A DNA stretch of 64,000 bases. Origin: Eukaryota sp. TZLM1-RC. Its lineage: Eukaryota > Protista > Metamonada: BaSk clade. Under the pieces are notes generated by a model. The model was not told where the DNA came from and did not search any database. It worked only from the letters and a program-made list of their open reading frames with translations. Of the stretch, positions 2,892 to 39,791 are shown in pieces. Both the position numbers and the translations under genes were made by a program. Position 1 is the stretch's first letter. Each line of letters begins with the position of its first letter. The stretch covers positions 628,159 through 692,158 of the forward strand of contig JAUPSS010000011.1 of NCBI GenBank assembly GCA_040285825.1. The letters run 5' to 3'.

Positions 2892-3655
2892 CTTGGAAGT
2901 TTTTAGAGGAGGAACTTGGCAGCAACGAAAAGAACGAGGAGGAAATTATAGTTCTGTGAAATTCTTATGAATCATGTCTGTTGGTTGACCGCCTTGCCAT
3001 CGTGATTGCTTTTCAGCTCAGTTATTAACCTTTCCTTTTCAATCAAATCATTTTCAAGTTCGGAAAGCTGCAGACTCTGAGATTGAGTAGTTTCATTTAA
3101 TTTAGATACTTCACACTCAAGTTGCTGGTTTAGTGATTGAACACTGCTCATTTCTTGGTTAAGTTGTGATATGTGCGCATCATGAGAGTGTAGAGACGAC
3201 AGAGCAAGGGAAAGAGAGGACTGTAGTTGAGATTCAATTGAAACCTACGCATTTGAAACCTTCTGGAGTGTGTCTGGAGCGAAAAATACATCACTTACTT
3301 GTGGAAGAGGAAGATTATGTGATTTGCAGTAGTTTTGATAAGTAGTGATTGTGTGTTTAAGCTGAATCACCTTGGTTTGTAAAGAATTGAGTTTAGACAT
3401 CGGCTAATAACACAAAACGTCAAACAGTGGTAACCTGTTGAGATTGATGGAGGACGTGGATAAAATGAACTGAGATGCTGAACTACTCAGTTGGAGAATT
3501 CTTACAAAGTAAATGGAAAGTGTGGGAAAGTGTGGGAATAGTGAAAACCTCCCAAAACCAAGTTGAGGGTTAAAAACCTCCCAGAATAGGCAACCAGAAG
3601 TCGAAAATGGGTGACAAGTGTAAAATTTGATAGATGAGCTCTTTATTCTCACTAC

Positions 3656-5611
3656 ATGTCAGACACCCCCTCTGTATCACGTGTATTCACTCGGTCTTGT
3701 GCACTTAACTCGCTGCTGACCCCTGCAGCGGTGCAACAAATTCGGACTGACCTTCCAGTGGTCACCGAGATTTGTCATGAAGCTTCTTTATTACTTCAAT
3801 CTTTTCTTCTAAATTTTCCGTTGGCATCAAGAGCTTTAGTGGAACAGGATGTATGGTATCTGTTTATGACCGTCATCACCACTGGTTCTTTTCCAAAGCC
3901 TTCCACATCTAAAGGCCAACGCCAATTACTCCATATCTTTTACAATGGATTTCTTCCTGAATGCCCACAAGACAGGTCTCTTGTTTCTGTGTGGGAAAAT
4001 TCTTTAGTGCCTTACAGAAATTCATTCAATCTTTTCCTCAATGATTGGCTGCAGTCCCAGAACTGTAATTTTATCAATAGAAAAGGGCTTTCTTCTTATC
4101 TTGCCTGTCGTGCTCGTCAATTGGCCTCCAACGTTAAGACATGTTTACCCAAAATTTGTCAATCCTGGACAAAAAACTTTATTCGTGCTCATTGTAGAGC
4201 CCTGAATAAAACAAATGTCTTTGCAAATAATATTCTTTCACTTTTGCCAGATGAACTACTAGCCCAACCCGAGGAAGTAGTAGTTGATTCTGTTCTTGAA
4301 TACCTCATCAATTTCAATTTGAATAATTCAAGAGAAAGATTTTTTTTATTGAATGCATGTAGGTTTATCTTGAATCTCTTTCAAAGATTTCCTACCACTG
4401 CCTCCCTACTGTCCTCACATGATAAAATCACTTTTCATCAAAGGAAATTAGTGAGCTTTTTCTCTTCAATCTTAAAATTTCACAATACTTACTCACTTTC
4501 TTTTCTCATATGCATTGCTGGAAGAAATTTAGAATAATACCTTTAGCTTCCCATAAAGGTTCTAAATTTATTGAGGTACCTTCACAAATTTTCCACTCTG
4601 TGAAAAAATTTCCAATTATTGAAGGATCATCTTCCAAAACAAAGTTCATCAAAAATACATGTCTGAAACGAATATTCAAACAATGTCCTTACCAAAAATT
4701 CAATATCAACAGAAAAAGTTTGAAAAATAGATTTAACAAAATTTTATTGAAAACTAATGGTAATGAACTGCTTTTGACCTTTGAAGGTAAAAATAATGAC
4801 TCAGAAAACACAGATGAGCTGGATGAACCACCGAAAAAGAAAAGAAGATCAAGAAATGAAATGAAAAGTGACCCTAATGCCAACAAAACCAGAGAAACAC
4901 AGTTGAAGGGTACTAAAAAAATGCCCCGTCGAAGACGTAGACATCCAGTCGAAATTTTACCTGAAAGGCCCCTTATCGGCGTTGATCTTGGCCAATCAAG
5001 ATTATGTGGTTACTTCTTAAATGACAATCAATGTGGAGTTATCCCTTGTCCAACTGGCAGGAGGTACAGGACAAAACCTTCACCCAGTAAACACTCTCCC
5101 AACCAATATTCCGTTCAAAATTTCAACCAATATTTGAACCATTGGAATTTGGTCAGGAGGAAAGTGTATTTGGAAAGTAATCGCCAGAAATGGAAAATAA
5201 TTAAATTTGATAACCGCAGACGAAAAGAGAGACGGTTCAGAGAGACTCTCAACAAATTTCAAAGGCTGGCTGGACATCCTGAAAAACTCTATCTTGCTGT
5301 GGGTTCTGCTAATTTCCCTTCTCATTGCCGAAAAGTCAATCGATATGGATCAGCAAGGGCTTTCAGAAAATGGTTGTGTTATCAAAAGGACGTGAAGCAC
5401 TTGTCAACCAGTGAATTTAATACAAGCAAAATGTCAAGTTGTTGCATGGCCGAGAATATTCAAGCAGGCTCATGGCAGATGCGTATTTGTACTGAGTGTC
5501 AAATAGTATATGACAGAGATATTTCCGCTGCAAAAAAATATTCAAATTAAGAAGAAAGCGGAATTGTGGCCGGAAAGATACATTTGCCCAGATGCTCTGC
5601 TGAGGAGATGA
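3656..5611 (+). CDS. Fanzor1-type RNA-guided nuclease (TnpB family), split by two frameshifts
   Basis: N-terminus 'SCALNSLL...VTEICHEASLLL', 'FRIIPL', RuvC-I 'LIGVDLG', RuvC-II 'LAVGSANF' with the shifted Glu in 'SEFNTSKMSSCC', Zn finger/RuvC-III 'CTECQIVYDRDISAA'. One frameshift lies between ~4425 and 4537. Removing one A from the A7 run at 5532-5538 gives a typical end, 'AAKNIQ...WPERYICPDALLRR*', stopping at 5611. Confidence 0.85.
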
Positions 5612-5652
5612 ATAGGGAACGTGAGCATACAGAAACAAAAACTTTTGAGACC

Positions 5653-5686
5653 GATCTACAAATACCTTAGTAGCATTTGGTAGATC
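5653..5686 (+). ncRNA. Stem-loop downstream of the Fanzor; candidate omegaRNA or element-end hairpin
   Basis: GATCTAC-AAAT...ATTT-G-GTAGATC inverted repeat about 40 nt after the reconstructed stop codon. Confidence 0.4.
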
Positions 5687-6161
5687 CACTTAGATACATC
5701 AAGTCGCGAGGCTTTGTTCTGTGAATGCAGTAGGTGTATTTAAGTGAGGTAGCCCATTGATGAAGATCATGATTGTCTTTGTCAAATGATGCTACATGTC
5801 TCTTACAGCCTGTGAGTAGACATTGAGAAAGTTGAAAACAGGAGTGAATTTCACAGGGGAATGCATGATAAGTGAAATTCACAGTATGAATCATGATTAT
5901 CCACAGGTGGTGCTCACTAGCGCATGTTATTTGTTCAGTTTTTTGTAGTTATTAGTGAGTTGTTACAATAATAAAGTCCTACATTATCTACAAGTGTTGA
6001 TTAGTAATGGCTTGACCAATAGAAAAAGGCGTTGTATACGTTTACTGAGAAGTTTGAACTTTATGATTTATATTTCTAATGTAAAGTGAAAGTACTTGAC
6101 AACTTTAGTGAAGCCTGTTCTTTCAATTTAGTTTTGATTCATTGCTCTTTCAAAATACTAT

Positions 6162-7133
6162 ATGGATGTCAGTCAAACATCTTTTGATGCAGCCAGTGCC
6201 AAATTGTCAGCTTCCACTGTAGGCTACTTTCCAGATCCTTATCTACCACATCTTGTTCCCACAGATAAACGTAGACGCTACGATCCGGTTATGCATCGTG
6301 GTTATTATTTACGTGTACACTTGGTTCGTTATTGTATTGATCAGTTTATTCAAAGATATCCTCAACACAAAATACAAATCGTTAATGTTGGATGTGGAGT
6401 AGATTCTCTGTTTCTTCATTATCTATTAGACCCATCATTCTCAAACTTAACTTGGCTAGAATTAGACTTGCCTTCAATTGTCAAGGAGAAATGCACATCC
6501 ATAATTAAGCACTGGAAGAATGAACTACAATTGGTTAAATCACGGAGTGTTTATGGAAGAGAGCTTCATGGACCTCGTTATCATTTAATCTCTGGAGATA
6601 TTACTGCTAGTGAAAGCTTGACACACTGCCTGTCTTTTATAGATCATCAGCAACCAACGTTGTTTCTTTTCGAATGCGTAGTCACATACCTTGATCCAGA
6701 TAATATGAATGATAGTTTATCCAAGATTAGTGAACAATTCCAGAAATGCTATTGTTTTCTCTATGACCCATTCAGATCACATACTACCTTTGGGACTATC
6801 ATGTTAAGAAATATTTCTGCAAGAGTGTCTTCATCATGTCCTTCATTGCAAAGATACAAGACACTGGTTGATTTCAAACAACGAATGTGCAATGTAGGTT
6901 TCAAGTGGGTAGTAGCAGGAGATCTCTTAACTATGGAGAAATCAGTTGTAGATGAGAAAGAGATTGCTCGACTTTTGAAGCTTGAACCGTTCGCTGAAGT
7001 CGAAGAGTATCAAATGTTACTTTCTCACTATTGTGTAATAGTGGCAGGTAACGACTTGGACAATGGGCTCATAACATTTGGATTGGAACAAGTGTCCCTA
7101 ATGGATGATAAGCCTGGATACAGCATTTGTTGA
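6162..7133 (+). CDS. LCMT1: Leucine carboxyl methyltransferase (PP2A methyltransferase, LCMT1/PPM1)
   Basis: 'AKLSA..VGYFPDPY', 'PVMHRGYYLRV', 'QIVNVGCGVD', 'PTLFLFECVVTYL', 'LEPFAEVEE...HYC'; 323 aa. Confidence 0.9.
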   Translation: MDVSQTSFDAASAKLSASTVGYFPDPYLPHLVPTDKRRRYDPVMHRGYYLRVHLVRYCIDQFIQRYPQHKIQIVNVGCGVDSLFLHYLLDPSFSNLTWLELDLPSIVKEKCTSIIKHWKNELQLVKSRSVYGRELHGPRYHLISGDITASESLTHCLSFIDHQQPTLFLFECVVTYLDPDNMNDSLSKISEQFQKCYCFLYDPFRSHTTFGTIMLRNISARVSSSCPSLQRYKTLVDFKQRMCNVGFKWVVAGDLLTMEKSVVDEKEIARLLKLEPFAEVEEYQMLLSHYCVIVAGNDLDNGLITFGLEQVSLMDDKPGYSIC

Positions 7134-7169
7134 TTTATAATAAACAATAAAAAACAGTATGGTCTATTA

Positions 7170-7778
7170 TTATACAATATTTCTAAGTGCAACAGCAGAT
7201 TTGACTGCTTCAACCTTATGTCTCTGAGACCTATAAACCAAAAAACAAGAAATCAAAGAAAGAAGAGAGATCACAAACCACATACAAGACTCTGAAATAG
7301 TAGTAAACCTCCAAAAGAAAGACATGTCAGACATTTTGGCCGTCTCCCAATTGGAAATACCCTGGAAGTTTCTATGGTCGGAGATAGCTGCAATGTAGTA
7401 GAACACATTCATGGAGAGTTGAAGGAGTATGTATTTGAAGCCCCTGGAAGGACAACCAAAGCCAAGAGCTCTAAAACCAGAAAAGAACACATACAGAGCG
7501 AGAGATGAGATCATAACAAACACTGAGATAAGTAAGCGAATTGACATACTAAAGAAAGAGTTGACTGCACCTGTCCACGAAATATCACTGCCAAAAAGAA
7601 GAACAAAATTGCTAAAGAAATTAAAGATAAGGGCGATAAGGGTTGCAATGAAAGTCCAGTGCGAAAAGCGGGCTGCAATTCGTCGGCCCTCGTCTAATTC
7701 ATCTATATTAACATGTACTATACGGAGACCAGGAGGATAGTTGAAATCATGCCAGTTGATTTGCTTTCGAGGGTTCAT
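7170..7778 (-). CDS. SCAMP-like four-TM membrane protein
   Basis: 'FNYPPGLRIVHVNIDEL' resembles the SCAMP NWPP..HHDI motif and is followed by about 4 hydrophobic helices. Confidence 0.6.
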   Translation of the reverse strand: MNPRKQINWHDFNYPPGLRIVHVNIDELDEGRRIAARFSHWTFIATLIALIFNFFSNFVLLFGSDISWTGAVNSFFSMSIRLLISVFVMISSLALYVFFSGFRALGFGCPSRGFKYILLQLSMNVFYYIAAISDHRNFQGISNWETAKMSDMSFFWRFTTISESCMWFVISLLSLISCFLVYRSQRHKVEAVKSAVALRNIV

Positions 7779-7847
7779 TTATTAGATACTGTCTATAATA
7801 ATGAGGTGTTCTTAGAGGGATTGAGTTGTTCAGAAGCGGAAGATTTT
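7779..7847 (-). promoter_or_regulatory. Conserved upstream module, copy A (homologous to 31062-31149)
   Basis: Manual alignment of AAAATCTTCCRCTTCT..AACTCA.TCCCTC..AAGAACAC..TTATAGAC..TATCT..AATA(A)ATG, ending at the ATG. Confidence 0.55.
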
Positions 7848-7856
7848 CGCATTAAT

Positions 7857-8114
7857 TCATTCATTTAAACCTCCAACAACCTTGGCTCTCTGTAGGTATA
7901 CTGGTCTATCTCCGCCATTTACGTGAGCCTCCATCACTACAAACATATTCAGCGAAGCATTTCGATCTCTATTCCACATATTTTCGCATGATTTACACAT
8001 AATAAGCCCGTGACGAATAGACATCTTATGCCTCTTCCATGGCCTTGTAGTGCTTTTAATGGCACGGAAGAAAACATCTGTGGTCCTTGTACGGATTACC
8101 ACTAAGGACGCCAA
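7857..8114 (-). pseudogene. C-terminal remnant of a Fanzor1 nuclease
   Basis: 'RPWKR..RHGLIMCKSCENMWNRDRNASLNM...GGDRPVYLQR': Zn finger, RuvC-III NRD and terminal RP.YL.R motif. Confidence 0.85.
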
Positions 8115-9370
8115 AGTCCTTGAGGTCCTTCAAAATTCAATTTTATTAACAAAGATGAGACTAGATTCAGTGTATTGAATACATATATAATCTGAAATTT
8201 TTTAGAGAGTCTTATAACCACTTCTTCTGTCTCGTTACATCTAAATGCAAAATAATTGTGTATATCATTTAGGCCTTCTGAATCATTGAGCCAAAGAATA
8301 CCAACATCATTCATTACATTCAATACCATATTGGCGTCAATTATGGTTGAAATATTTACGACTCTGAATACAGTATTTTTTTTAAAAAATGAGCCAATCA
8401 AAAGTTTAGTGAATTCATCAGAATAATCAAGAAAATCCACCAAAAGATGTGTTACCAATAAAAAACCTATAACTTTCAGGTTTGCAAACTCTATTTTTGA
8501 ACCTATAATATTCGGACATTTTCAACAACAACAGTAGAATTTCCGTCAAGATTGAAATCTCCGTAATTGGCCAATTGGCATTCTGGGAAAGTCATACAGT
8601 TAAACAGAGTGGAAAAATATACCCAAAGTAGAATGAGCAATTGTTTAAACAGATTCTCTAAAGCACAATAGAACCGACAACCCGTGATTATTGAAAGTGG
8701 ATTAATATTATAATAATATATCAGAACTGATAGATTCACTTACAATTACTTACTATGAAATAAACCATTACTAGAATAGAAGCAAGATCTATAAATTGAG
8801 AATCAAGAAAATAAATTCCAAGGAAATCAAGTTGCCACATATTTTGAGGGTTTTCACAATTTCGAAATTAAAGTTTTCCTGAAATAATTTTGAAAAATGT
8901 ATGTTGGGAATCAAAAGTTTCAATAACAAATTTCCAAGTAATCAACAACTGAATACTTACTAATTAAAGTATTTATTCTTATGGACCAATGAATAGTCAA
9001 TTCAAAACATCCAAACCAAGAGCAGTATTATCATCATGTATTTCAAAAATATCTGTTGCTAAATCAGATAGATTGTGTCAAATCATCAGTGATAAACAGT
9101 ATTGAAGGCCTTGTAAAATGATTCATTTGCTCATGAATGGCAGAATGGTAAGGTCATGAAACCATCAGCGTTGCCTCATAATGCTCTGAATCCATGTCCA
9201 CAGCAGTTGAATAATAGAATCAATAATTAAAACAATGTCACATAATCAAACCGATCAACATCAAATACTGGTGGGTATAGATGCAATTTTGAGAAACAAC
9301 GTATAGTTTTGAAATAACTTAAACTTTCAAACCGGATTTCTTATCAGAACAATACTTATTATTCTCATTG
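8102..9370 (-). pseudogene. Degraded leucine-rich gene relic of unknown family
   Basis: Chain of short co-oriented ORF fragments (8102-8458, 8503-8739 and others) with many stops. Confidence 0.3.
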
Positions 9371-9431
9371 CCATATGGGAAATTCCCAAAAATATACGAT
9401 CAATTTTCGTGTGGAATAATTACAAAAACTA

Positions 9432-11690
9432 TCAACTACACAGATACTGAGGCCTTTCATTACCACTCATTCTGGCTTCAGCAATTGCAAACATATTCAG
9501 ACAAGCCAGCCTATTTCTATTGAAAAGCTTTGTTCAGCCCTTGTTACCGAGTTTACAACTCTCACTGTTACAAGCTAATAAACCATGACATGTAGTAACA
9601 GGAGTCTTTTCTCTTCTATAGAATCTGGGATTTGTTACTCTCAAAAACGTAGTAACCTTTTCAAAACAAACAGGACATTTTGCTGAAGTAAAAGCTTCAT
9701 TAATCATCAATACTTCAAATCCATTCCTTTTCAGAAATTGAATCCATCCAATTCCACGAGTAGGCCTTTGATGTTTTAAATTCTTGGAACCTTTTTTACT
9801 ATAATCACCCATTAGAATTAAAGTGTCTTTTGGATTGCATAACTGCTGGACAAGGTTTTTTAACAACCAACTTTCAGTCTTTTGCTTGTGAATGAAAGCT
9901 TGCATTTTATGAGTGCTCCACAAGCCAAAACTGTAAAAGTCAATTGTCAAAAAACTTGCCGAAGTTTGGCAACCACAAAGTTGGAAAAATCTATAAAAGT
10001 TGCTGAATTGGCAGCAAACGTGAATAATTCGGTGTTGGCATCTTCAATTGTCATTTCGTTAGACTCTATCATTTGGTTCCTATCGGAACCTACCTCAGTA
10101 TACTTTGTCGACCATCGTTTCTGTTTTTCATTCATCCTACTTTTCAAAGACCAGGACATCTGAGTCATTCTCAACCATTTGTACTTCTTGTCTTGATTCA
10201 TCACCCGACTATTTCTTTGCTGTTCAGTTTCATGTTCAGGCACCATGGCTAGTTCTTCATCAGTCTTTTTGCTGCCAAAATACAATAAGTCACGTTTTCC
10301 AGGATCACAAACAACAATTCGTTTGTCTTGAAAAGCATCAACATCAACATCATGAATATATAAATCAGAAATACTAGCCTTGTTGTCTGGCTTACATTTC
10401 TGACCTTGTAAATCCCGACGAACAAATTCTACTGCAATATTAAATCCATCTGTGTGTATAATGTTGTTGAATTTATAGCTCTTCTGTTTGAACATTGGTT
10501 GATTTAAATCGAGAATATTAGACCAAAAGTCAAATTGCTCAGGTGGTTTCAATTTCGTAATTTGGGCTAATGTATTGGACATTTTCAGCGTCTGTGTAGA
10601 TGATAAATCATCAATACATGTTTGTCTAATAATTCTCCATATTGTTCTTGTATCAATGGGAAAATATCCAGGGCCTACAGTGGTTGAAACAGGAGAAATA
10701 TGATACGGTTTCTTCTCTTTCTACTGGAGATATATTGGGCAATTGTAATTGCTGGTTTTAGGAATATTTGCGGATCTTTATCAACAGCGTCTGCAAGAAA
10801 ATGATTATCCACTGGAAATATATTATCAACTAAATTCTCGTCAATGACCAAATTCTCAATTTGGCAAGTAAAAGGCTCAATAAGACCTTCAAATATGTCT
10901 CTAAGTTCATTATTTGTTATATCATGTTGTTCACATAAATCGAAAAGTTCATCATTCAGAAGGACTCTGAAATATTTTCAGGATGATGAAACAAAGAACT
11001 CAAGGAATCTCTATCATCAACTAAAAACAAGTTTTTGAATTGACGAAGCCTAAATCTATATAGTGAAATAATTGTAGATAATCGCGTTGAGTATCCACCC
11101 AGCTTGTGCATTTCTGCTAACACACTTTCCACATCTACTTTGTCAAAGTAAACATTAATAAATCGATTGATTTGTTTTTCATAATTTAGTTTCAAATTAT
11201 TCTCAAAATTGGCAAACATTACCGGGGCCATATACTGAGGTGGTCTACTGAAGCCATCAGTTGGAAATCGTGGAAAAAACTCAGGCCTTTATCTCAAATG
11301 GCCTACATAACTTATGGTTTTGTTCAACTTTTGTTGTTCAAAGGTGGTCGATAATCTATAATCTTCTTCACCATAATCAAAGTTTTCAAAATCCTCTGGA
11401 AGTACACTTTTTGGTTTCATCATTTCTTGCCCATAATACTCAGCTGAAATATAACAAATTCTGGCCATTAATGATTCATATAATTGGGCAGATATTCGTG
11501 GTAATGACAAATTACGTTCAAAACAAGACTGTAAATACAGCTTTAAGCAACATGTGATGTGAATACGTAACTGTTGAAATTTTAAAGCAGTTTCTCTCAA
11601 TTTGAGTACCACATTTGAATGTTTGACCATTGAGTTGACGGTTGCTCGAATGGTTTTATAAGATGATAAAATAAATTTGTCTTTCTGAAA
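9432..11690 (-). pseudogene. Fanzor1 nuclease body of the exonuclease-Fanzor fusion gene (frameshifts and stops)
   Basis: N-terminus 'YKTIRATVNSMVK..LRETALK..HITCCLKLYL', 'ANFENNLKLNY', 'IHTDGFNIAV', RuvC-I 'IVVCDPGKRDLLY', 'LMGDYSK..PTRGIG', 'INEAFTSAKCPVC', 'CHGLLAC', then past an in-frame TGA 'FNRNRLACLNM..GNERPQYLCS*' ending at 9432. Confidence 0.9.
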
Positions 11691-11699
11691 CAGCCCAAA

Positions 11700-12474
11700 A
11701 AGTTTCAGACAAAGGATACAATCATGAAGCCCATATTGAATCGAATTTCGTATAAGAGGAGAAGTAGCTAAACAATCAATTGGCAAAATATGGGAAAATT
11801 CTTGATGAAGTTTGATTTTCTTTTCATTTATCATTTTATATGCCAGATTGCCTAATCCATGTCGTTAGGGTATTTTTATGAATTTTTTGGCAAAAACCAA
11901 AGTATCTAAAAGAACAAAGCTATTTTCCCTGATGACAACTTCTCTCCATCTCGGTGAAAGTTGATTGAGTACATCAATTGCTGTATCATCTGGAACAGTG
12001 GGAAATGGTAAATCAAAATAATTTAATCTATTTTTTAAAACCTATAAATCAAACTGCATTAAGTTTTGATTAAGAAAACAATGGGGTTGATAATTACCAA
12101 TAATGTTTAAAAACCTACGAAGCAAGGCTTTTTCGTCAGAGAAAATTTCTGCCTGAACATCCATATCAATGTCTGGTAATGTAATTTGAGGACTCATCCT
12201 CAACATAAGTGAATATTTACTCTCCAAAAAGAAATTATGGCGATCAAATTTACCAATAACAATCGAAATTAAAAAAACTTTTTGATCAGAAATTTGCTCA
12301 CCCATTTGCTCATCAGTTTTCTTTTTCAAAAGATTTGCACCCACTTTTCTCCTTTTGTCGGTTAATCTCGTCAGGAGGGAGAAATTGGCCATCTTGACTT
12401 TGATAAAGATGACCATCCTGATAGGTTTCAAGATCAAAGCACATAACAGTGGGAAAATTTTCATTTGAGGTCAT
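11700..12474 (-). pseudogene. DNA polymerase B-type DEDDy 3'-5' exonuclease domain, in frame with the Fanzor N-terminus
   Basis: ExoI 'VMCFDLETY' (12424-12438), 'FSDEKALLRRFLNII..YQP', ExoII 'NQNLMQFDL*VLKNRL' (~12045-12070), 'LLDTLVFAKK..HGLGNLAYKMINEKK', ExoIII 'IQYGLHDCILCLKLF' (11721-11735). ExoIII and the Fanzor start share ORF 11289-11834. Confidence 0.8.
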
Positions 12475-12731
12475 TCATTTGAATTGAATCAAAGGATTAG
12501 GCTTGAATCCACTAAGACTTGGCTCAGTTTTTCCAACCATACTCGGTTTCCATGGTTTGTTTGTCAAAATCTTCCTGTTCTCGATATTCAACATTGTATT
12601 CTCAATACAAATTTCTCGGTTCAGTGCTTTTTGTTGTTTTTTAGCTTACGCTTTGATGTTTGTTGGTCAAAAATCGCATTTCTAATATTTTTTTATGGAG
12701 GAGTTGATTTATAATTAGATCTTCTCTTTCT

Positions 12732-12779
12732 GGGACCAGGATTTGCTTCAACATCTCCATACATTGTTAAATCAACAGT
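12732..12779 (-). other. 2A ribosomal-skip (StopGo) peptide TVDLTMYGDVEANPG|P
   Basis: Exact D(V/I)ExNPGP consensus (GDVEANPGP at 12732-12758) preceded by 'DLT..', upstream of and co-oriented with the exonuclease-Fanzor frame. Confidence 0.8.
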
Positions 12780-14394
12780 AAATGGGTTTGTTGATAGAAG
12801 ATGTTGGCAGCTAATGGATTGAAAAGATAAATTATAAACATAATTATCAAACTCAACATTATCAAAATAACAATTTTAGACACAACATCCCACATCTAAA
12901 GTGTAAGAATCTAAACCACAAAAATGAACAAACTCAAAAACATCAAAATAACAATATAAAACAAAACATATTTAGAAGAAGCATCTCACATCTTGGCTCT
13001 GACCTTCCGTTTATTCCTGTAAATCAGGATGACTGTTCCCGACTGAGGAGTTCGGGAAGAAGTACTCTGCTGTTCTTTGAAGAACAGGTTGAAGGAGGAG
13101 GTGCGAACTGAGTCCGTAACCTCGTTATCCTTTTTCTCGTTTTGCTGCATGATGTTAAAAAGAATGGGAAGAGTCAAGATAATCTCTCTGTCTGACACGA
13201 TGTCTGATATGCTGATTGCAATTTCAAATTGATTGCTAATTTCCACTATGGTATCAAATGCCTATCCAATGTATCTCTAGTGGTCATCAGCATCAGCTCG
13301 TTACCCTCTAGCTCTTCTGGTCGTTGTTACTCCGTCTAAACTCTATGTTTTTTCCCAGTTTCCTTCTCCTTCCTTTACCTCTTGTTGTCTTCCCATTCAG
13401 CTATCTCAACAATTCTCCCTTCCCCTCTCCCTCTGTGTTTTGAGGGGACCTAAACAATTGCTTGTTTGGCCCAGAATCAACAAAATTCATAAGTGAGTAG
13501 ATGGTCTATTGATTTCAGACGTCTCAAATTTACATGGACCACAATGAGGTTGAGTCCCCACACCTGGACTTAGTTGGATGTTTCACTTACAAAATCAGAG
13601 AACATAACAGAGACTGATCATCTATCTGATTGGAGAGACAGTAGGTGAGTAACCCTTTCAATTTTCAGCAAAAGAAGTTGAATAGTTTTAAGTTTTTGGT
13701 TCAAAACTCCAGTTTTTGGAAAACCAGTAATTTCTCCAATGATATTGATAACTATGTGAGTAAAAATTAAATCATTATAAGAAAAAGGAATCCAAATGTC
13801 TACTGTCAATCAACTTCCTCAATTTAGAGCTCTGTGAAGTAGGACAACATAGGATCAAAGAATTTGACCAAAGCTGCATTCATTGGTGGAAAAATTTTGA
13901 TTTTGAATTTTGTAGAAGATATCCTTTTGCCAAAAATCTTCTTGAAACAACAAAGTCTATTCATGGATAACTGATTTGGTTCACCAGTGATGGTTATCTT
14001 GATGTATCCTCAATTCTCTTTGTTTAAATAAATACATCACAAATTTCCATCTATCTTTGACATCGATTGCTGATTGTTTAAAGTTACACATAATTTTATG
14101 CTTCGAATAAACAGTTTGAAAATTACACTGAAATTGGCAAATGCTGATAGGATTTGTTCACGTATTAATTTGTCAGGACGTGCCTCCTGAAAACTGTAAA
14201 TTTGTAAATTATCAATTCAGATAAAAAACAAATTCTCATATTCAAAGTTCAAGCAGAATCAGTTAAGAGAGTGCCATAAACTTGAGGATTTGTTGTTACT
14301 AAGGCAGAAGAAGTACTATCACACATATCTTGTAAAAGATTTGCAAAAGCGGGATTCTTTTACCATTCTTCTTACATTCCATTCTTCTTCCATT

Positions 14395-15513
14395 ATGTGG
14401 ATCTTCTTCCTACTCTGTTTAACGTTGTTGGTCTCTGCAGACTCTTCTCTCCATGGTGTTATAGTTACCACTCGCCATGGAGATCGCTCACCCTTACGAA
14501 CATATCCCCAACAATTTGCCACCTGGAACTGCACGATGAACTTGTTCTCTTCCCTTCATTTTGGAGAAAACTCTGTTCGATATCCTTATTTCCGAAAAAA
14601 CTATGTTGCTGACAAACAAGCCCTGAGTGGTAGCTGCTTCCTCGGCCAGCTGACCAATAAAGGAGGGTTGCAACACTTTGACCTAGGTCGTCGTCTCCGT
14701 GAGCAATACAACTCAATTCTGCCCTCCATTCCTGATGAAACAACCTATTTCAGATCCACTGATCTTCCTCGTACACAAGAAAGTCTTATCAGTAACATTT
14801 TAGGAACTTTCCCATCACTCCAGAGCAGCAGTCACGTACCTGATATCAATATATTTGAAAGACCTCAGGAGACACTCTTAGCCAATGCTGGTGCCTGCCC
14901 AAGACTTAAAGCAAGATTGGATGATCTTTATAGTAGCAACGAATGGGTTTCAAAAGAACAATCCCTTGAACATGTCAGAAGGAAGCTAGAAATTGCCTTG
15001 GGGGTTGAAGTGGTGACCTTAGACGACTGGAATAAAGGCTTTGATTATCTTTACACATTGGTGAACAATGCATTGCCTCTGCCTCGGCCAATTACTTACC
15101 AAGATTACCAAGAACTATTTGAGTTGAAATCTTGGCAGCTTTATAGAATGTACTCTGAAGAATTTTTAACTTTATCTTTAGGAGTTTGGTTTAAGGAATT
15201 GAAAGACAGTATTCGAGAGGTTTTTGAAGGTAAGTCAATTGTAAAGTACAGAGTTTTCAGTGGTCATGACACAACTGTTATGCCTTTGCTTCAGGTATTA
15301 GACATCGCCAACCCTGAATGGCCTCCCTATGCAGCTAATGTTGCTCTTGAGTTGTGGTCGGTTGATGGCAAACCCACAATTCGAGCAGTTTACAATGGAG
15401 AACCAATTAAAATGAGGTATTGCTCTTCAGTAAATTGTCCTTTGCAAATGTTTGAAGAAAGAATAGGGCAATTCTCTGTCTCCAGGCAAGAATGGGAAAC
15501 TCTTTGTATGTAG
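14395..15513 (+). CDS. Secreted/lysosomal histidine acid phosphatase
   Basis: Signal peptide 'MWIFFLLCLTLLVSA' from ATG 14395; RHGDRSP motif, 'GQLT..G..QH..LG', 'RSTD..RT..S', 'SGHDTT'. Confidence 0.93.
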   Translation: MWIFFLLCLTLLVSADSSLHGVIVTTRHGDRSPLRTYPQQFATWNCTMNLFSSLHFGENSVRYPYFRKNYVADKQALSGSCFLGQLTNKGGLQHFDLGRRLREQYNSILPSIPDETTYFRSTDLPRTQESLISNILGTFPSLQSSSHVPDINIFERPQETLLANAGACPRLKARLDDLYSSNEWVSKEQSLEHVRRKLEIALGVEVVTLDDWNKGFDYLYTLVNNALPLPRPITYQDYQELFELKSWQLYRMYSEEFLTLSLGVWFKELKDSIREVFEGKSIVKYRVFSGHDTTVMPLLQVLDIANPEWPPYAANVALELWSVDGKPTIRAVYNGEPIKMRYCSSVNCPLQMFEERIGQFSVSRQEWETLCM

Positions 15514-17294: not shown

Positions 17295-17484
17295 TGTTGC
17301 CTGTGGGCTAGAGTCAGACATATATGTGAACAGATAGTAATTTTATTACGACGAGAAATGAGCTATGGTGAATTTCAATACCATCACTAGTGAGGTCTCC
17401 ATGAATAAACAATGAACATTAAGCTAATAAACAAGAATAAATAGATAAGTCTATCTACACTCTAGAATAGTGTAAAGACTAACA
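17295..17484 (-). repeat. 3' LTR (190 bp)
   Basis: TGTTG...TAACA ends, abuts the PPT and pol stop codon, carries AATAAA on the minus strand; 17439-17489 is identical to 22789-22839. Confidence 0.7.
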
Positions 17485-19293
17485 CTACTTTTTCCCCTCC
17501 ATTCGACGGTCTTTTCTAGCTCTTCTGCGAGGTTGTTTGCGAGTAGGTTGACTAGTTGGGGGTTGTGACTTATTAGTCTGGAGGAAGGCTCGGTAGGCCT
17601 TGGTGTTCTTAATGCGGTCGACAGGCTCAGTGCCTCGTACATCTCCAGCGTATACGACTTGACACTCGTTGCCATCCTGGCTGAGAACTTCTAATAGAAG
17701 ATGTTCCTCAGTATAACCTGAGGCCACGATACGATAAAACTCATCATCAGTGGGTTTGTCAGAATGGTACAATTTGCATTGTGAAATGCTAGCCTTAGAT
17801 TCGACACCTGTGATTAAATTCTTTAATAATAAAGTTGATTTACTAGGTTTGTCGATGACCAGATATGGGCCCAGATAATTCCCATGTAATTTGGAGTTAC
17901 TAGATGATTTGAGGATTAAACATCCAACTTCGAATAGCAGGTTACTCGTGCTTGGCTTCTCCTCTGGCGATTTCGATGTTTGGGTGATTTCTGCTTTTTC
18001 TCCTTTTTCTTTTAGTCGATTAAATTTAGATTGGATATCCAGAATGAAAGGAACCTCAGTGGTAGCCTTTTCGATGGTGGAAAAAATTGATAAAGGGTCA
18101 GCTCTGGGACTGACGTCTGACCCAAACATAAGCTCGAATGGACTGAAACCTGTGACAGAGCTCTTAGACGAATTCGTTAAGAGTTGTACGTAAGGCATGT
18201 ATTCTGACCAGTTGTCATAGGCGTTAAAATCGATTAGGAGCTTCCTAAGATTTTGTAAAATAACTCCATGACGTCGTTCAACTAGGCCATTTGATTGACT
18301 GAAATTTGGAATACTGTTCGTCATGTTGATAGACAGGAATTCGCACAGTAATTTAAACACGTTGTTGGCGAATTCTGGGCCGTTGTCACTGTGAATGCTG
18401 TAAGGTATACCAAAGATTGTGCACACACTCCAAATCAAAGCGTCGGCTGTCAGCCTTGCGTTTAATTCTTTGAGGGGCACGAGGACTGTATACCGAGTGA
18501 AACTGTCCACGAAAACTAAGATGTATTTATTGGCCTCTTGATCTGGAGGAAGAGGACCAATGGTATCCACGTTCAATCTCGCGAAGGGTTTGTCAGCCCA
18601 GAGAGATCCGGTGGAAGGAGTGATAGATTTGGGGACAGGTGCCGTTTTCTGACATAATGGACAAGAACGCACGTGGTTCTTCATATCATCAGTCATACTG
18701 GGCCAGTAGTAGTCGCTAGAGGATAGCCTGCGTAAACTCTCAGACATACTAGGATGACCGCTTGATACATAACCATGTATGATCAAGAGCGTGTTGTTGA
18801 TGAGTGATGACGGGATGATGATCTTGCCTGATTCGTTAACGTAGAGGTCAAGATGATTGACGGAACAGTTATTAAATGAACGTTCGTGAGCTGCAACAGC
18901 TTGTCTTTGCTCTGAACGGATTCTACTCAACCAAGGATCGAACATGGGGGTTGCAGATGCACATTTCTCTTTTAGAATGAGGATTTTGTGGGTATCCCGA
19001 AGGTCGTCTGGGTCTGGAAGAGCAGAGTCGTCTGATGGATCATAGTTTCTGATATAATAGATTGGGTGAAACGGTTCATAGGTGGTCTCGCTCGCTGATG
19101 AACGAGTATTGCCTGTGTTGATTGTGTTTATGCGTACAGGATCGGTCGTTGGGACCTGTCTGGATAGCATGTCTGCCCAGTAGTTGTCTTCCCCCGAGGT
19201 GTGTACCAACTCGAAGTCGAACTCACTGAGTATTGGTAACCAACGTGTGACAATTCGATTCTTATCAGGGGCTGTTACCAGATATGAGAGCAA
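17485..19293 (-). CDS. Pol C-terminus: end of RNase H, integrase (HHCC, DDE), GPY motif and degenerate chromodomain-like tail
   Basis: 'H..G..N.WADMLSR', 'HGYVSSGH...CPLC', 'VDTIGPLP', 'VDSFTRY', 'HSDNGPEF', 'SNGLVERRH', 'YLGPY'. Confidence 0.92.
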   Translation of the reverse strand: MLSYLVTAPDKNRIVTRWLPILSEFDFELVHTSGEDNYWADMLSRQVPTTDPVRINTINTGNTRSSASETTYEPFHPIYYIRNYDPSDDSALPDPDDLRDTHKILILKEKCASATPMFDPWLSRIRSEQRQAVAAHERSFNNCSVNHLDLYVNESGKIIIPSSLINNTLLIIHGYVSSGHPSMSESLRRLSSSDYYWPSMTDDMKNHVRSCPLCQKTAPVPKSITPSTGSLWADKPFARLNVDTIGPLPPDQEANKYILVFVDSFTRYTVLVPLKELNARLTADALIWSVCTIFGIPYSIHSDNGPEFANNVFKLLCEFLSINMTNSIPNFSQSNGLVERRHGVILQNLRKLLIDFNAYDNWSEYMPYVQLLTNSSKSSVTGFSPFELMFGSDVSPRADPLSIFSTIEKATTEVPFILDIQSKFNRLKEKGEKAEITQTSKSPEEKPSTSNLLFEVGCLILKSSSNSKLHGNYLGPYLVIDKPSKSTLLLKNLITGVESKASISQCKLYHSDKPTDDEFYRIVASGYTEEHLLLEVLSQDGNECQVVYAGDVRGTEPVDRIKNTKAYRAFLQTNKSQPPTSQPTRKQPRRRARKDRRMEGKK

Positions 19294-19631
19294 TGTCCAT
19301 TGGATCTGGATCCATTGCTGGACAAGGATCCATTGCTATTGTGATCTGTGAATATCGTGAGCTTCCTGCTTTTGAGGTAACTCTCGATGCATGATTTTGT
19401 TAGGATGAGAAGTATAGCGTAAAGCTCTTTCTGCATCGTTGACCAATTCTTTTGGGAATTGGAGAGAATCCTGCTAAAGAAACTGATAGGTCTGACCTTA
19501 GGGTCAATGAGAGGAGTGCCATTGTGTTCACAAGGATCATATTCTTCCCAAATGACGCCGCCAATAGCAATGTCTGATGCGTCACAACTGATAGGGACAC
19601 AGTTATCTGCTGGGGGTAAACTCAATGGCAT
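19275..19631 (-). CDS. RNase H fragment of Pol (frameshifted)
   Basis: 'CDASDIAIGGV', 'PISFFSR.L...QKNWSTMQKELYAI', 'IFTDH'. Confidence 0.9.
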   Translation of the reverse strand: MPLSLPPADNCVPISCDASDIAIGGVIWEEYDPCEHNGTPLIDPKVRPISFFSRILSNSQKNWSTMQKELYAILLILTKSCIESYLKSRKLTIFTDHNSNGSLSSNGSRSNGHCSHIW

Positions 19632-19679
19632 ATTCTCCTTTACGAGTTGCTTGATCTTGTTGAAGCGAAGTTCATGATC

Positions 19680-21443
19680 TCAGGTCCACTCGATACGGCG
19701 GTGGTTTCCTCTAATAAGCTCGATGATAGGAGATAAGATTTCGGATACCGAAGGTAGCCAGTTTCTAATGTAGTTGATGGATCCTACAAAACTTCTGACG
19801 TCATTCACTGTCTTGGGAGCTGGAAGCTCGACTTGTCCAGTTAGTCGTGAGGGATCGATTTGGTGTGTACCGTTGACGAAGATACTACCAAGAATCTTGA
19901 TTTCATGATCTTTAGACTTGAAATGGCATTTTGGTAGGCCAAGGCTGACCCGCTTCTCTTTAGCGCGGAAGAGGACGGCTTTGAGCCTGTCGATGAATTG
20001 AGGAAGGGTATTACCTATGATAATGATTTCGTCGATGTAGATAAACACGCCTTCGATGCTAAAGATGTTGGACATTACATTTTGAAACACTGCCGGGACG
20101 TTCTTGAGACCGAAACATGCCCTGTTGAAGCTGATACTGCGACCAGGAATGCTGAGGGTGGTTTTCTCGATGTCTCTTTCGTTGATCTTGAGCTGCCAAT
20201 ATGCTTTTGGGAGATCAAGTGTTCCAATGTAATTGGCTTGAGATAAGAACTCTAATACATCAGAGATCTTGATTGGAGCAATGGAGATAGTGTTTGCATT
20301 GACTCCATTCGGACCACTGAAGTCGCCTGTAAGACGTGGTTTCCGATGATCAGGATAAACTACAAGAACGACTGGGGAGCTGAATCTACCGTTGGATTCT
20401 GTGGCGAAACCAGATTCGATTAACTCATCGAATATTTGGTTGGCGATTTTGAGTCGTTCAGGGTTTAACCTGCGAGGTGGACGATAAACAACAGTGTCTT
20501 CATCGTAGAAATCGATGTCCATGGGGTTACAGTCGATGCCGTCTTCATGGGGTTTCAACGTGAAAACATCTTTGAACTCTTCAAGAGTTGCGAGGAGCTG
20601 TTGATTTTCTGATTGATTGTTGAGCTTTATTTGACAACCTGACGAGTTGACGTGATCTTCGAATGTTTTTGACACCTTGAGGTCAGATATCTGTGAAATT
20701 CTGTGGTCAAACTCAGATTCAGGTAACATTAGTGTTCTGTGAAGCTCATCGAGATGAATGTGTACCCTGTCGTTGTTCATGAGGCTGAGTTCATATAGGA
20801 TGTATATTCCTATAATTAGAGTGTTGTTGCCTGGAACGATTGGTAAGGATTTGGTAAGATGCACAACTTTGGCAATGCTACCGACGTTGAAGGATAGGAT
20901 TCCTTTGGTATTGTAGTCAGAGTTTGATGGTTCTTTGTTAACACCAATGAATTTGAAAGATTCAGTGCAGTGTTCCATCTTGCATTTTGTAGATAGGTCT
21001 TTCGAGATGACGGATATGGATGCTCCGCTATCAATAAGGCCAGATACCTTTATGTTATTAATCTGCAACCAGAGTTCAATAAACGTGGGACAATTAATAG
21101 ATTTATTGGCACAAACAGAAGACAAACTAAAAATTCTATTGGTATGCGAAGATTCAGGGTCACATGTGCTCAAAGGATTTAAGAGGCGTTTGGGAGGAGA
21201 ATGCGACGATGTCAAAAAACGATTGTTTGAGAGAGTCGGTAGTATGATCTGAAGATGGATTGACGTTGGTAGATTGTGGATTCTTGATGTTAATTGTATT
21301 GATCCTGTAACTACGAGAACGTTTACTATCACTACTACTATAACTATCCAAACTACGGCGCTTATTCTTAGGAATTGCAGATCTCTTGCAATGTGGATGT
21401 AGGCATTCCTTGACAGAATGACCTGGCTCTTTGCAAAATCCAT
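19680..21443 (-). CDS. Pol N-terminus: aspartic protease and reverse transcriptase
   Basis: 'LIDSGAS', 'SSPVVLV', 'LDLPKAYWQ', 'FGLKNVPAVFQ', 'YIDEII' (YxDD changed to YIDE). Confidence 0.92.
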   Translation of the reverse strand: MDFAKSQVILSRNAYIHIARDLQFLRISAVVWIVIVVVIVNVLVVTGSIQLTSRIHNLPTSIHLQIILPTLSNNRFLTSSHSPPKRLLNPLSTCDPESSHTNRIFSLSSVCANKSINCPTFIELWLQINNIKVSGLIDSGASISVISKDLSTKCKMEHCTESFKFIGVNKEPSNSDYNTKGILSFNVGSIAKVVHLTKSLPIVPGNNTLIIGIYILYELSLMNNDRVHIHLDELHRTLMLPESEFDHRISQISDLKVSKTFEDHVNSSGCQIKLNNQSENQQLLATLEEFKDVFTLKPHEDGIDCNPMDIDFYDEDTVVYRPPRRLNPERLKIANQIFDELIESGFATESNGRFSSPVVLVVYPDHRKPRLTGDFSGPNGVNANTISIAPIKISDVLEFLSQANYIGTLDLPKAYWQLKINERDIEKTTLSIPGRSISFNRACFGLKNVPAVFQNVMSNIFSIEGVFIYIDEIIIIGNTLPQFIDRLKAVLFRAKEKRVSLGLPKCHFKSKDHEIKILGSIFVNGTHQIDPSRLTGQVELPAPKTVNDVRSFVGSINYIRNWLPSVSEILSPIIELIRGNHRRIEWT

Positions 21444-22788
21444 AGATGTCAGAAGGGGACGCAGCAGATTTATCGTCTTTGGCAGAGCGTTTCTTTAGAT
21501 TTTTGACTCTGCGTCTGAGCTGCTCCTTGTTGGTCGATACTTGTTCGACATAATCGTAAATGTCGATAAGCTTTTGGTCTTGGGGATGGGGTCTCCCACC
21601 GAACATAGGACCTTGAGCTCCTGGACCAGTGAAGTTTCTGACGGATTTCCGAGCTCGCTTTTGTTCCTCGAAGGTTCTGGTATTACACCAGTTGTTATAA
21701 AACTTAGAGAGAACATCGATGAAATCACTTAGACGGCGTTTAACGTAAAAAGAAGAGTACGTCCAAGGATTGAAGAGCTCGTTGAAGAGAGGGTCAATTC
21801 CGAGGTTGTCGAGAATAGAGAACGCAATGTCCCATTCTTCGAGCTTGATTACCTCTTGATGGGGTTGGAAGCGATCGATAGCTAGTGTATCTCTCATCCC
21901 CATTGATTGATTGACGACAAAGCCGACCTGCGATATATATTTAATCCATCTACTCTGGTAATTGGAGATATTCCAATCCATTTTGACTTGGGATAATGTG
22001 AGTTTGGCAGTGGCCAGATTTGGAAACTGGGAAGCGAAGAGAATGTTCTCCCACAGTTCTTCATCGTTGATATGATGGAGATGGAGACCGGGCCTTGTAC
22101 CATCTGCAGCCTCGGCAAGGGTAGATATGACATCGGTGTCAACGCAAGAGCTGATGCCAGCTGGATTGATTTCAACGCCAGCTCTGAAAATGTCCCACTT
22201 GTGGGCTGGCTCATCGTATCGTTGATTTAACGAAATGTAGTTGGGAAGATGAGTAGCGCGGAGAGTACAGGCTCTGTGAGCTACTGTAAGTTGTGTGAGA
22301 CGTGCAATTTCATTAGTTAGAGCGACTTCGCGAGGGTTGTTGGGGTCACATTTGAAATCTTGAGAAATTCTATCATTGTACGCCGAAGAGATGAAGTCAT
22401 TAATAAATGCAATGACCTTGCCAGTACTGGTAATCGTGTCCTTCTTGAGACGAGGGCGATTACGATCTTATTGAAGTTTCTTGGCTCGGTCGTCATAGAA
22501 ACTACGAGACGCTTTGGACATAGCCGCAAGAACAGCGTTAGTGGTAGTAGTGGCGTTTTGAGGAGGGAGACTAGCACCATAGACTGTTTTTCCGCAGTCT
22601 GATACTTTAGTCTAGCGCATCCTGTCTACTTGTTCCATGGGTTTATCATATCGAGTGTGACTTGGAACACCATCAAAAGTAGGATCGACTTCTTGTCCAT
22701 CTCTGGTGATTTTAGGGAAACAGCGAGAGGGGCTGTCCCTGATTTTGGTGGTGGACTGTGATGTTTTAGGAATGTTAAGCGAGGAATG
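21160..22788 (-). pseudogene. Gag-like ORF with two in-frame stops and a degenerate CCHC knuckle
   Basis: The frame of ORF 21160-21981 extends to the 5' LTR remnant through one TAA and one TAG; 'YGFCKEPGHSVKEC'. Confidence 0.7.
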
Positions 22789-22834
22789 AAATAGATAAGT
22801 CTATCTACACTCTAGAATAGTGTAAAGACTAACA
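22789..22834 (-). repeat. Truncated 5' LTR (46 bp)
   Basis: Exact match to the first 46 nt of the 3' LTR, then runs directly into the gag frame. No PBS seen. Confidence 0.8.
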
Positions 22835-23082
22835 CTACTGATGATGTGATACTTTCCTAATCTGGAGGGTCACCTTTAGCCAAGGCTAACATATAAAGGG
22901 ATACCATTGAAACTGTTGATTAAGTACAACCTTATCAGCCATGTACTATATTGAAAGTGAATAATATCAATTGTTACTAATTATTGATGCAATACGCTAC
23001 TAATTTATCAGCCAAAAAATGTCATTAAAAAATCCCATTAACAACTCATCTATTTATCTCTTAAACAATCAAGGACCATGAC

Positions 23083-39063: not shown

Positions 39064-39791
39064 ATGTTGTTGTTTTATCAGTTGAGGTTTTCTGTGTCGT
39101 AGTCTGATATACAGAGGTTGATTTTGATTGTTCTGATTTTGTCTTATTTAATTGTATGGTGGTTCAAATTTAAAAGTTGACTTTGTAATATATTAATATT
39201 TCCAACACCAGTACTGTTTTATTTAATCCTCAGAAAATCAAATTATATATCAGTTAATTCTGTTTTTGAACATCTACGGAGATTTGGTTATTAAATTCCA
39301 TCAATTTCTTTTTGTGATATAAACCAACTATGACTAGCTTTTAGTCACCACACAGCCAGTAATCAAATACATCCAACATATTCAGACAACCCATTTCGTT
39401 ACTATTCCAATACTTTGCATTCATTACATCTCTATATTGGGACCGTTTGCGTCTTGATTTAAATTATTTATACAAACGGTTTTACATACAACAAAAACAA
39501 AAAACCCATAAGGCGCTTCCAGTGGTGATTTTCAGCACACTTTGGGTTTTTCTTTGCTCTTATCTTTGTTCCATATGCCTTTTCAATGAAGGCTCTTTGT
39601 GTTGGGATAGGTATGAGATTACTGAGTTTTTTACAACTCAAATCACTATTGCCCAACACAACTTTGTCTTTACCACCTTATTTTGTCATGGAATTCTTGA
39701 CAAGTCTTGCTTAATCTACAGAGTAAAGAACAATTTGAGTAAGGTTTTATTATGTTAGTGAAATTATTTTTTTGGAAAAATGGACATTGTA

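What the first reader, a model, noticed from the sequence alone, without database searches (positions are those of the whole stretch)
12732..12880. Viral-type 2A StopGo peptide at the head of the exonuclease-Fanzor gene
Seen: ...LLSTNPFTVDLTMYGDVEANPG|PRKRRS... on the minus strand, ~290 nt upstream of ExoI and linked to it by a reading with two stops and one frameshift. The basic RKRR right after the skip site looks like an NLS. Established: D(V/I)ExNPGP causes ribosomal skipping in picornaviruses and totiviruses and occurs at the N-termini of some non-LTR retrotransposon ORFs such as trypanosome L1Tc. Inference: the element may release its nuclease from an upstream peptide or from a host ORF it landed in. 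A 2A on a Fanzor is not something I recognise.
Basis: partly seen in the sequence, partly recalled or inferred. Interest (0 to 1): 0.85.

Follow-up and report, generated by a model that had tools for sequence, protein, structure and literature searches.

The report
Ribosome-skip peptide heading exonuclease-Fanzor polyproteins
A family of mobile genes in anaerobic protists joins a proofreading-type exonuclease to a Fanzor nuclease (predicted to be RNA-guided) and keeps a virus-style 2A peptide in front, which likely makes the ribosome cut the nuclease free from a leader; this copy is broken, but whole relatives keep the layout.

Summary
GDVEANPGP lies at 12758-12732 (minus strand), the only such motif in the window; none appeared in 150 shuffles. 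The window copy is a dead gene. In other copies the motif is in frame with a PolB-type DEDDy exonuclease fused to a Fanzor1 with a D-E-N RuvC (fold hit SpuFz1, E 1e-29). Six subfamilies, mostly 25-30% identical and from two protist genomes, carry it, as do 7 of 10 complete chains; 0 of 68 other hits do. The 14-residue site is 72% identical across subfamilies against 7-8% in the flanks. It belongs to the DLTxDG StopGo class, whose tested viral members skip. In this subfamily the leader belongs to the element, not to a host gene. The basic patch after the site occurs in only two subfamilies. Two subfamilies add a SENP8/Ulp1-like protease. Skipping, RNA guidance and mobility are untested, and one subfamily shows no 2A. 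I found no 2A-Fanzor or exonuclease-Fanzor in the papers searched. This scan noted 2As in Helitrons and FEN1-Fanzor fusions on other DNA, but not this pairing.

The parts
13410..13457 (-). Candidate 5' end of the element, with a 7-bp hairpin
   Evidence: One contig of run X2 leaves the window sequence at 13457 and depth falls beyond it; the hairpin region folds at -8.0 kcal/mol as DNA. Weak: one contig.
12989..13150 (-). Start of the leader ORF (ATG at 13150, 54 codons)
   Evidence: 83% identical to P0170 residues 1-54 and 81% to P0008; ATG checked.
12774..12992 (-). Rest of the leader, with remnants of an 81-nt (27-residue) Cys-rich hydrophobic repeat. About 135 codons are missing before it in this copy, with a frame change.
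   Evidence: P0170 residues 55-189 are absent from the window; repeat D5 has spacing 81; contigs show loose ends at 12995 and extra repeat units.
12732..12773 (-). 2A/StopGo peptide of the DLTxDG class. Predicted skip between Gly (12737-12735) and Pro (12734-12732). This copy has Tyr where relatives have Asp or His.
   Evidence: motif class from PMC12846837 section 10.
12720..12731 (-). RKRR basic patch, a candidate nuclear signal, shared only with subfamily B
   Evidence: Function inferred.
11718..12444 (-). PolB-type DEDDy 3'-5' exonuclease: ExoI 12441-12421, ExoII 12065-12045, ExoIII 11735-11718. Broken here by a frameshift near 12350, TAG at 12044 and TAA at 11867.
   Evidence: Pfam DNA_pol_B_exo1 at E 2e-4 for the window piece (under the cut-off) and 1e-6 to 1e-16, above the cut-off, for most relatives; fold hits to Pol delta; coordinates.
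9432..11717 (-). Fanzor1 body: RuvC-I DPG 10309-10289, RuvC-II Glu 9704-9684, zinc finger from 9677, RuvC-III with Asn 9524-9501. Broken by TAA at 11291, frameshifts near 10963, 10720 and 9948, and TGA at 9536.
   Evidence: Collinear tblastn with complete relatives P0118, P0135 and P0140; model of P0118 matches SpuFz1, E 1.2e-29, TM 0.82 by target; coordinates.
9376..9431 (-). Conserved 3' end of the element, the candidate omega-RNA scaffold end, closing in a 5-bp hairpin
   Evidence: Contig cover ends at 9376-9401 with loose ends in both runs. The fold is no more stable than shuffles (z 0.73) and there is no Rfam match, so the RNA is not shown.

Best explanation
This is a broken copy of a multi-copy mobile gene whose single reading frame runs leader - 2A peptide - proofreading-type exonuclease - Fanzor1, and the 2A likely makes the ribosome release the leader so that the two-nuclease protein is made as a separate chain. 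Shown: the order of parts, the shared frame in other copies, the island of conservation at the 2A, and intact exonuclease and RuvC motifs in whole relatives. Inferred, step by step: (1) Translation starts at the element's own ATG and makes a fast-changing, repeat-rich leader, which is Cys-rich and hydrophobic in this subfamily. (2) StopGo at NPG|P frees a roughly 1,100-residue protein that begins with Pro and, in subfamilies A and B, with a basic nuclear signal; it would otherwise stay tied to a greasy leader. Incomplete restart would also ration a toxic nuclease. (3) The Fanzor would bind an omega-RNA from the element's 3' end and cut element-free alleles. (4) The fused 3'-5' exonuclease would trim the cut ends, most plausibly the short non-matching 3' tail that blocks copying of the element by recombination. 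Step 4 is the least supported.
For: The motif is far beyond chance. Both intervening stops are sense codons in related contigs. One ORF runs from leader to exonuclease in P0170 and P0008. A 2A-like site is in 25 of 171 proteins held, all in this clade, and in 7 of 10 complete chains. It is in 0 of 68 other hits of the same search and in none of the window's other Fanzors. Six subfamilies carry it; five of these form, with G, H and K, one branch of the Fanzor tree at SH-aLRT 100 (quick tree, F not included). Mean identity is 0.72 over positions -13 to +1 against 0.08 upstream and 0.07 downstream; L, T, G, D, N, P, G and P are invariant. The natural changes are V/I and E/H. V13I is tolerated in both peptides of a published mutant scan, and E14H is the only substitution at D12, E14 or N16 that keeps activity (0.85, in P2A only). 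The site matches the DLTxDG class, whose tested member skipped at almost 100%. Table S1 of PMC12338488 lists PnPV 2A1, the same as P0126 at 13 of the last 14 residues, with activity 0.6. D-E-N is an active Fanzor1 triad in GtFz1.
Against: No skipping, expression or cutting was measured. Subfamily G (3 of the 10 complete chains) shows no 2A in its gene models, one of which extends 320 residues ahead of ExoI; H models and one D model (P0169) also lack it. Within the window's subfamily the 9-residue core has decayed as fast as its flanks (7 of 63 against 29 of 350), so these copies show no current selection. Motif matches often fail in reporters: only 18.6% of cells in a 1,602-member viral library fell in the active gate, though 21 of 34 were active in another study. 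The window's own peptide has Tyr at the acidic position, and motif changes usually abolish activity. The conservation figure is partly circular, since members were picked by the core motif; the LT pair was not selected for. Leaders and sites look swapped between subfamilies (P0010; C and D share a leader), so the six cases are not fully independent. All relatives are gene models whose splicing I could not check against DNA. No transposase, target-site duplication or omega-RNA was shown.
Confidence: 0.7

Rival explanations
1. The peptide works mainly as a brake: ribosomes stall and drop off at it, limiting a toxic nuclease, and clean separation from the leader is secondary.
For: Leaders are unrelated between most subfamilies and look low in information; the Atlas gave no usable match for the subfamily A leader. 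Eukaryotic 2A-like peptides that skip without restart or lower protein output are reported (abstract), and down-regulation was proposed for retrotransposon 2As.
Against: The downstream Pro is invariant. The output-lowering class is tied to poly-leucine helices, whereas these are DLTxDG peptides, a class with efficient tested members.
Confidence: 0.13
2. The 2A is a relic, picked up once and passed between subfamilies with leader swaps, and no longer works on this host's ribosomes.
For: It decays at the background rate in subfamily A, is not seen in G and H, and chimeric leaders exist.
Against: Eight positions are invariant while the flanks are at 7-8% identity, across two species, and the variation stays within tolerated substitutions. 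It is intact in all 7 complete chains that carry it.
Confidence: 0.08
3. The 2A is a gene trap: the element lands in host reading frames and uses the skip to free its nuclease from host protein.
For: Near-identical subfamily C bodies have four different leaders that share at most about 20 residues before the site. P0010 has a long unrelated front end.
Against: In the window's subfamily the leader is the element's own. The nearest upstream host gene (14200-15513) points away on the other strand. Some C, D and F leaders recur in several copies, so they are element sequence. Differing leaders may be splicing guesses of the gene finder.
Confidence: 0.07
4. The motif is chance, or belongs to a separate retroelement or virus fragment inserted ahead of the Fanzor.
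For: DLTxxGD peptides are common in viral contigs (96 stretches).
Against: Chance expectation is 2.6e-5. The frame is continuous in paralogs. The same position is used in six subfamilies. None of the 97 viral loci held matches the exonuclease or Fanzor beyond the peptide itself.
Confidence: 0.02

Closest known systems
DLTxDG-class (motif 4) StopGo peptides of RNA viruses, e.g. Perina nuda virus 2A1 and Ectropis obliqua virus 2A1 (PMC12846837 section 10; PMC12338488 Table S1)
   Same: Same core and the same upstream W-x-x-DLT-x-acidic-G signature; P0126 differs from PnPV 2A1 at 1 of the last 14 residues.
   Different: It sits in a DNA mobile element of a protist, ahead of nucleases. Some subfamilies use His for Glu or Phe for Trp. 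Activity is untested.
2A-like peptides of APE-type non-LTR retrotransposons: L1Tc, Ingi, CR1, Crack, L2 (Odon 2013, PMC3708506)
   Same: A 2A near the N-terminus of a mobile element's long ORF, ahead of a nuclease; the DVHxNPGP variant also occurs there.
   Different: No reverse transcriptase or APE domain here. The upstream class is DLTxDG, not the leucine-rich type in the listed CR1 examples.
Fanzor1: SpuFz1, GtFz1, PpFz1 (Saito 2023 PMC10432273; Xu 2024 PMC11423790; Bao and Jurka 2013 PMC3627910)
   Same: Same fold (TM 0.82 to SpuFz1 by target), DPG RuvC-I, zinc finger, the D-E-N triad seen in GtFz1, multi-copy, a conserved 3' end, and no transposase inside the element, as for Spu-1.
   Different: About twice as long, with a fused DEDDy exonuclease, a 2A-separated leader and, in two subfamilies, a SENP8/Ulp1-like protease. 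The word 'exonuclease' occurs 0 times in the main text of the Saito, Jiang and Bao-Jurka papers.
Proofreading exonuclease domain of family B DNA polymerases (Pol delta 3IAY, HSV-1 polymerase)
   Same: ExoI D-x-E, ExoII and ExoIII Y-x3-D motifs and fold.
   Different: There is no polymerase domain; it is joined directly to the Fanzor.

Membership tests
2A/StopGo peptide | Core D(V/I)ExNPGP | tested here: met
   Window 12755-12732; E/H variant in subfamilies C and F.
2A/StopGo peptide | Supporting upstream hexapeptide of a known class | tested here: met
   DLTxDG class in relatives. The window copy itself has Tyr at the acidic position.
2A/StopGo peptide | In frame inside a longer ORF | tested here: met
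   P0170, P0008, P0007 and 7 of 10 complete chains. Not met by the broken window copy alone.
2A/StopGo peptide | Measured peptide-bond skipping | not testable with these tools
   Needs a reporter assay.
Fanzor1 | Split RuvC with catalytic triad and zinc finger | tested here: met
   D, E and N in all complete chains; N is an active variant in GtFz1.
Fanzor1 | Fanzor1 overall fold and sequence affinity | tested here: met
   The top seven Foldseek hits are SpuFz1, PpFz1 and GtFz1; phmmer of P0126 to SpuFz1 gives E 1e-22. Tested on relatives P0118 and P0126.
Fanzor1 | omega-RNA from the element's 3' end | tested here: inconclusive
   A conserved end at 9376-9401, but no unusual stability, no Rfam family and no RNA run to lay.
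Fanzor1 | RNA-guided, TAM-dependent DNA cleavage | not testable with these tools
   Needs biochemistry.
Fanzor1 | Carried by a definable transposon (ends, target duplication or partner transposase) | tested here: inconclusive
   Multi-copy with a sharp 3' end; the 5' end rests on one contig; no long inverted repeat joins the ends; no transposase between the ends.
DEDDy exonuclease of PolB type | ExoI, II and III acidic residues with Tyr | tested here: met
   Present in subfamilies A, B, C, G and H and in D. ExoI is absent from the P0126 gene model; the F model departs at ExoII and ExoIII.
APE-type non-LTR retrotransposon with 2A | APE endonuclease and reverse transcriptase after the 2A | tested here: not met
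   Pfam scans of window pieces and relatives found neither.

The most novel reading that the evidence does not exclude
A virus-like, self-processing RNA-guided polyprotein (leader - 2A - optional SUMO/NEDD8-type protease - proofreading exonuclease - Fanzor1) that spreads by homing without a transposase of its own. The Fanzor cuts the empty allele, the fused exonuclease removes the non-matching 3' tail so host recombination copies the element in, and the protease strips ubiquitin-like marks at the break. It would be a natural cut-and-trim editor, and the first 2A on an RNA-guided nuclease that I could find.
Probability: 0.25. Interest if true: 0.9.

Novelty: new variant of a known kind. Interest (0 to 1): 0.73.

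Why it matters
In the papers searched, 2A peptides are described from RNA viruses, retrotransposons and scattered cellular genes. Here one is kept across a deep clade of Fanzor elements, which suggests a eukaryotic RNA-guided nuclease made by translational recoding. The clade also supplies whole natural exonuclease-Fanzor fusions (for example P0140, P0147, P0161, P0135, P0118) that can be expressed. They allow a test of what end trimming does to the outcome of a Fanzor cut, which bears on the open question of how Fanzors help their elements persist, and on editor design. The peptides give natural E/H and W/F variants of the DLTxDG class and a way to test StopGo on a divergent protist ribosome.

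Tried and rejected
A non-standard genetic code was considered for the stops and rejected: related contigs have sense codons there. An exact 26-nt search of metagenome contigs gave 0. A family-pattern scan gave 320 candidate stretches and 0 confirmed. Viral contigs gave one weak 17-residue hit. No RNA holder was listed among sequencing runs, which says nothing on expression. Runs X3 and X4 laid nothing. The Atlas gave no usable match for the leader. Folding of the 3' end was unremarkable, and Rfam gave only a chance-level hit. The careful tree did not finish; the quick tree is used. Literature searches: Fanzor+NPGP 0 papers; Fanzor+exonuclease domain+fused+IS607 0; Fanzor+DEDD 6, Fanzor+Ulp1+transposon 2, 2A-like+NPGP+transposon 2, judged from listings only, with none describing this system. 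Reading RuvC-III Asn as a dead nuclease was rejected. No complex prediction was run.

Full report
OBSERVATION. The minus strand at 12773-12732 encodes DLTMYGDVEANPGP, followed by RKRR. It is the only NPGP in six frames of the window. The expected count of D[VI]ExNPGP is 2.6e-5, and 150 shuffles gave none.

THE WINDOW COPY IS A DEAD MEMBER OF A MULTI-COPY FAMILY. Searches with two window pieces returned 6 and 10 proteins. Of these, 15 are labelled Eukaryota sp. TZLM1-RC and 1 TZLM3-RCL. That these labels are Skoliomonas-type metamonads is recalled; the genome paper names Skoliomonas sp. GEMRC, but 'TZLM1' is not in its main text (passages). Laid on the window, these proteins tile one ORF from the ATG at 13150 to about 9432. 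P0170 runs from that ATG through the site into all three exonuclease motifs; P0015, P0002, P0001 and P0033 carry the overlap through the RuvC. The window copy lacks about 135 leader codons and has six premature stops and five further frameshifts. Contigs of runs X1 and X2 (one sample) show other copies with sense codons at 12694, 12476 and 9535, insertions near 12640 and 9948, and Asp for Tyr at 12761. Cover ends sharply at 9376-9401. On the 5' side it thins beyond about 13270, and one contig leaves at 13457.

THE 2A IS A FAMILY FEATURE. A search of 1.84 billion representatives with P0002 gave 101 hits. Cluster look-ups and one more search added relatives from TZLM3-RCL and GEM-RC1. A 2A-like site is in 25 of the 171 proteins then held, all in this clade; P0170 has a further, decayed one. 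They fall into six subfamilies, A (window) to F, mostly 25-30% identical, with C and D at 52%. Of 10 chains with a complete RuvC and exonuclease motifs, 7 have the site in frame: P0126, P0135, P0140, P0145, P0146, P0147 and P0161. The other 3 are all subfamily G. H models and one D model also lack it; I could not check their upstream DNA. None of 68 other hits, some of them fragments, has the motif or an ExoI motif. In a quick tree of 28 rows (F and the GEM-RC1 proteins not included) the 11 clade rows are one side of a branch at SH-aLRT 100. With one member per subfamily, mean identity is 0.72 over positions -13 to +1, against 0.08 upstream and 0.07 downstream. This is partly circular for the core but not for the invariant LT.

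IT IS THE RIGHT KIND OF 2A. PMC12846837 (section 10 and passages) defines a DLTxDG upstream class with a W-V-(R/K)-DLT-x-acidic-G signature. Its tested member skipped at almost 100%, and motif mutants mostly lost activity. Table S1 of PMC12338488 (supplement rows) gives PnPV 2A1 an activity of 0.6 and EoPV 2A1 0.99; P0126 differs from PnPV 2A1 at one of the last 14 residues. [quoted passage not shown] The clade varies at just these places. Against this: 18.6% of cells in that paper's 1,602-member library were in the active gate (section 27 part 1 of 2); the window's peptide has Tyr at the acidic position; and within subfamily A the core decays like its flanks (7 of 63 against 29 of 350), as expected for dead copies.

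WHAT IT SEPARATES. Upstream in subfamily A is a leader of about 260 residues that belongs to the element, with 10-15% Cys and 27-residue repeats. Other subfamilies have unrelated leaders, some Ser-rich and some shared between subfamilies, which points to swapping. No family match was found for the leader. Downstream, an AlphaFold model of P0118 (pLDDT 75.6, pTM 0.67) matches SpuFz1 (E 1.2e-29, TM 0.82 by target), then PpFz1 and GtFz1, then PolB exonuclease domains. The RuvC triad is D-E-N in all complete chains, a form that is active in GtFz1 (passages). P0126 and P0032 put a SENP8/Ulp1-like protease between the 2A and the exonuclease (E 2.9e-6 and 3.7e-4; Pfam C48 just under the cut-off). The basic patch follows the site only in A and B; N-terminal nuclear signals are common in Fanzors (passages).

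MECHANISM. Shown: the layout, the frame and the conservation. Inferred: skipping frees the nuclease from the leader and may ration it; the Fanzor cuts element-free alleles with an RNA from the 3' end; and the exonuclease trims the ends. A cut 15-20 nt from the TAM leaves a short tail that does not match the donor junction. Removal of such tails by Pol delta proofreading in yeast is recalled, not checked here. A fused proofreading domain fits that job. Alternatives are degrading the ends to prevent re-ligation, or trimming the guide RNA. No transposase lies between the inferred ends, as is also reported for Spu-1.

NOVELTY. Searches for Fanzor with NPGP, exonuclease domain, DEDD, Ulp1 or 2A terms found no description (listings only). 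'Fanzor' occurs 0 times in the main text of four 2A surveys and in the supplements of PMC12338488, which also lack 'TZLM'. 'Exonuclease' occurs 0 times in three Fanzor papers; their supplements were not read and may list such proteins. The bioRxiv supplements were closed and could hold these peptides. Odon 2013 (passages) covers retrotransposons and has no mention of DNA transposons; Heras 2006 was seen only as a citation. Unchecked notes of this scan report 2As in Helitrons and FEN1-Fanzor fusions in other genomes, so each idea has a parallel, but no note held the pairing.

VERDICT. A real, conserved feature and a new variant of Fanzor1 elements. Confidence that the 2A separates leader from nuclease is 0.70. 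Interest is 0.73, held down by the lack of functional data, the dead window copy and the narrow known host range.

Noticed in passing
window 39344-39707 (-): Decayed 3' remnant of a second exonuclease-Fanzor subfamily (B), 59% identical to the end of P0135.
   Followed up: partly
window 3638-5550 (+), 24549-25690 (+), 7857-8129 (-): Three more Fanzor/TnpB-like genes, split or fragmentary, with a normal Asp in RuvC-III and no 2A. The window holds five Fanzor loci in 40 kb.
   Followed up: partly
window 17439-22839: Retrotransposon-like element on the minus strand (gag-, pol- and integrase-like ORFs by eye) between two identical 51-nt repeats.
   Followed up: no
window 40805-44669, 46306-54471, 60483-64000: Satellite of 462-464 nt units at 97-98% identity with strong GC skew, interrupted twice.
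   Followed up: no
window 1096-1395 and 35997-36296: A 99% identical duplicate of part of a long kinase-like gene; the first copy is truncated.
   Followed up: no
window 680-714 and 9289-9323: A 35-nt match at 86%, inverted. The second arm lies just outside the element's 3' end, about 50 nt beyond the predicted guide start; meaning unknown.
   Followed up: no
P0138 residues 1-100: A short stretch like the tail of a Ulp1-type protease lies upstream of the 2A in subfamily B, whereas E and F have the protease downstream. The match is very weak (E 0.34 pairwise).
   Followed up: partly
P0117 (2027 aa): A gene model joins a DEAH-type helicase to a whole subfamily G exonuclease-Fanzor with no 2A; a real fusion or a merged prediction.
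   Followed up: no
P0007, P0008, P0013, P0170 leaders: The Cys-rich repeats hold 2-5 MGC motifs each, like N-terminal lipid-anchor signals (recalled), which could tie the leader to membranes.
   Followed up: no
L073 about 4800-8700 (+): A 39-kb viral contig has a 1,307-codon open frame with three identical DLTxxGD-type 2A motifs, unusual for a contig of that size.
   Followed up: no
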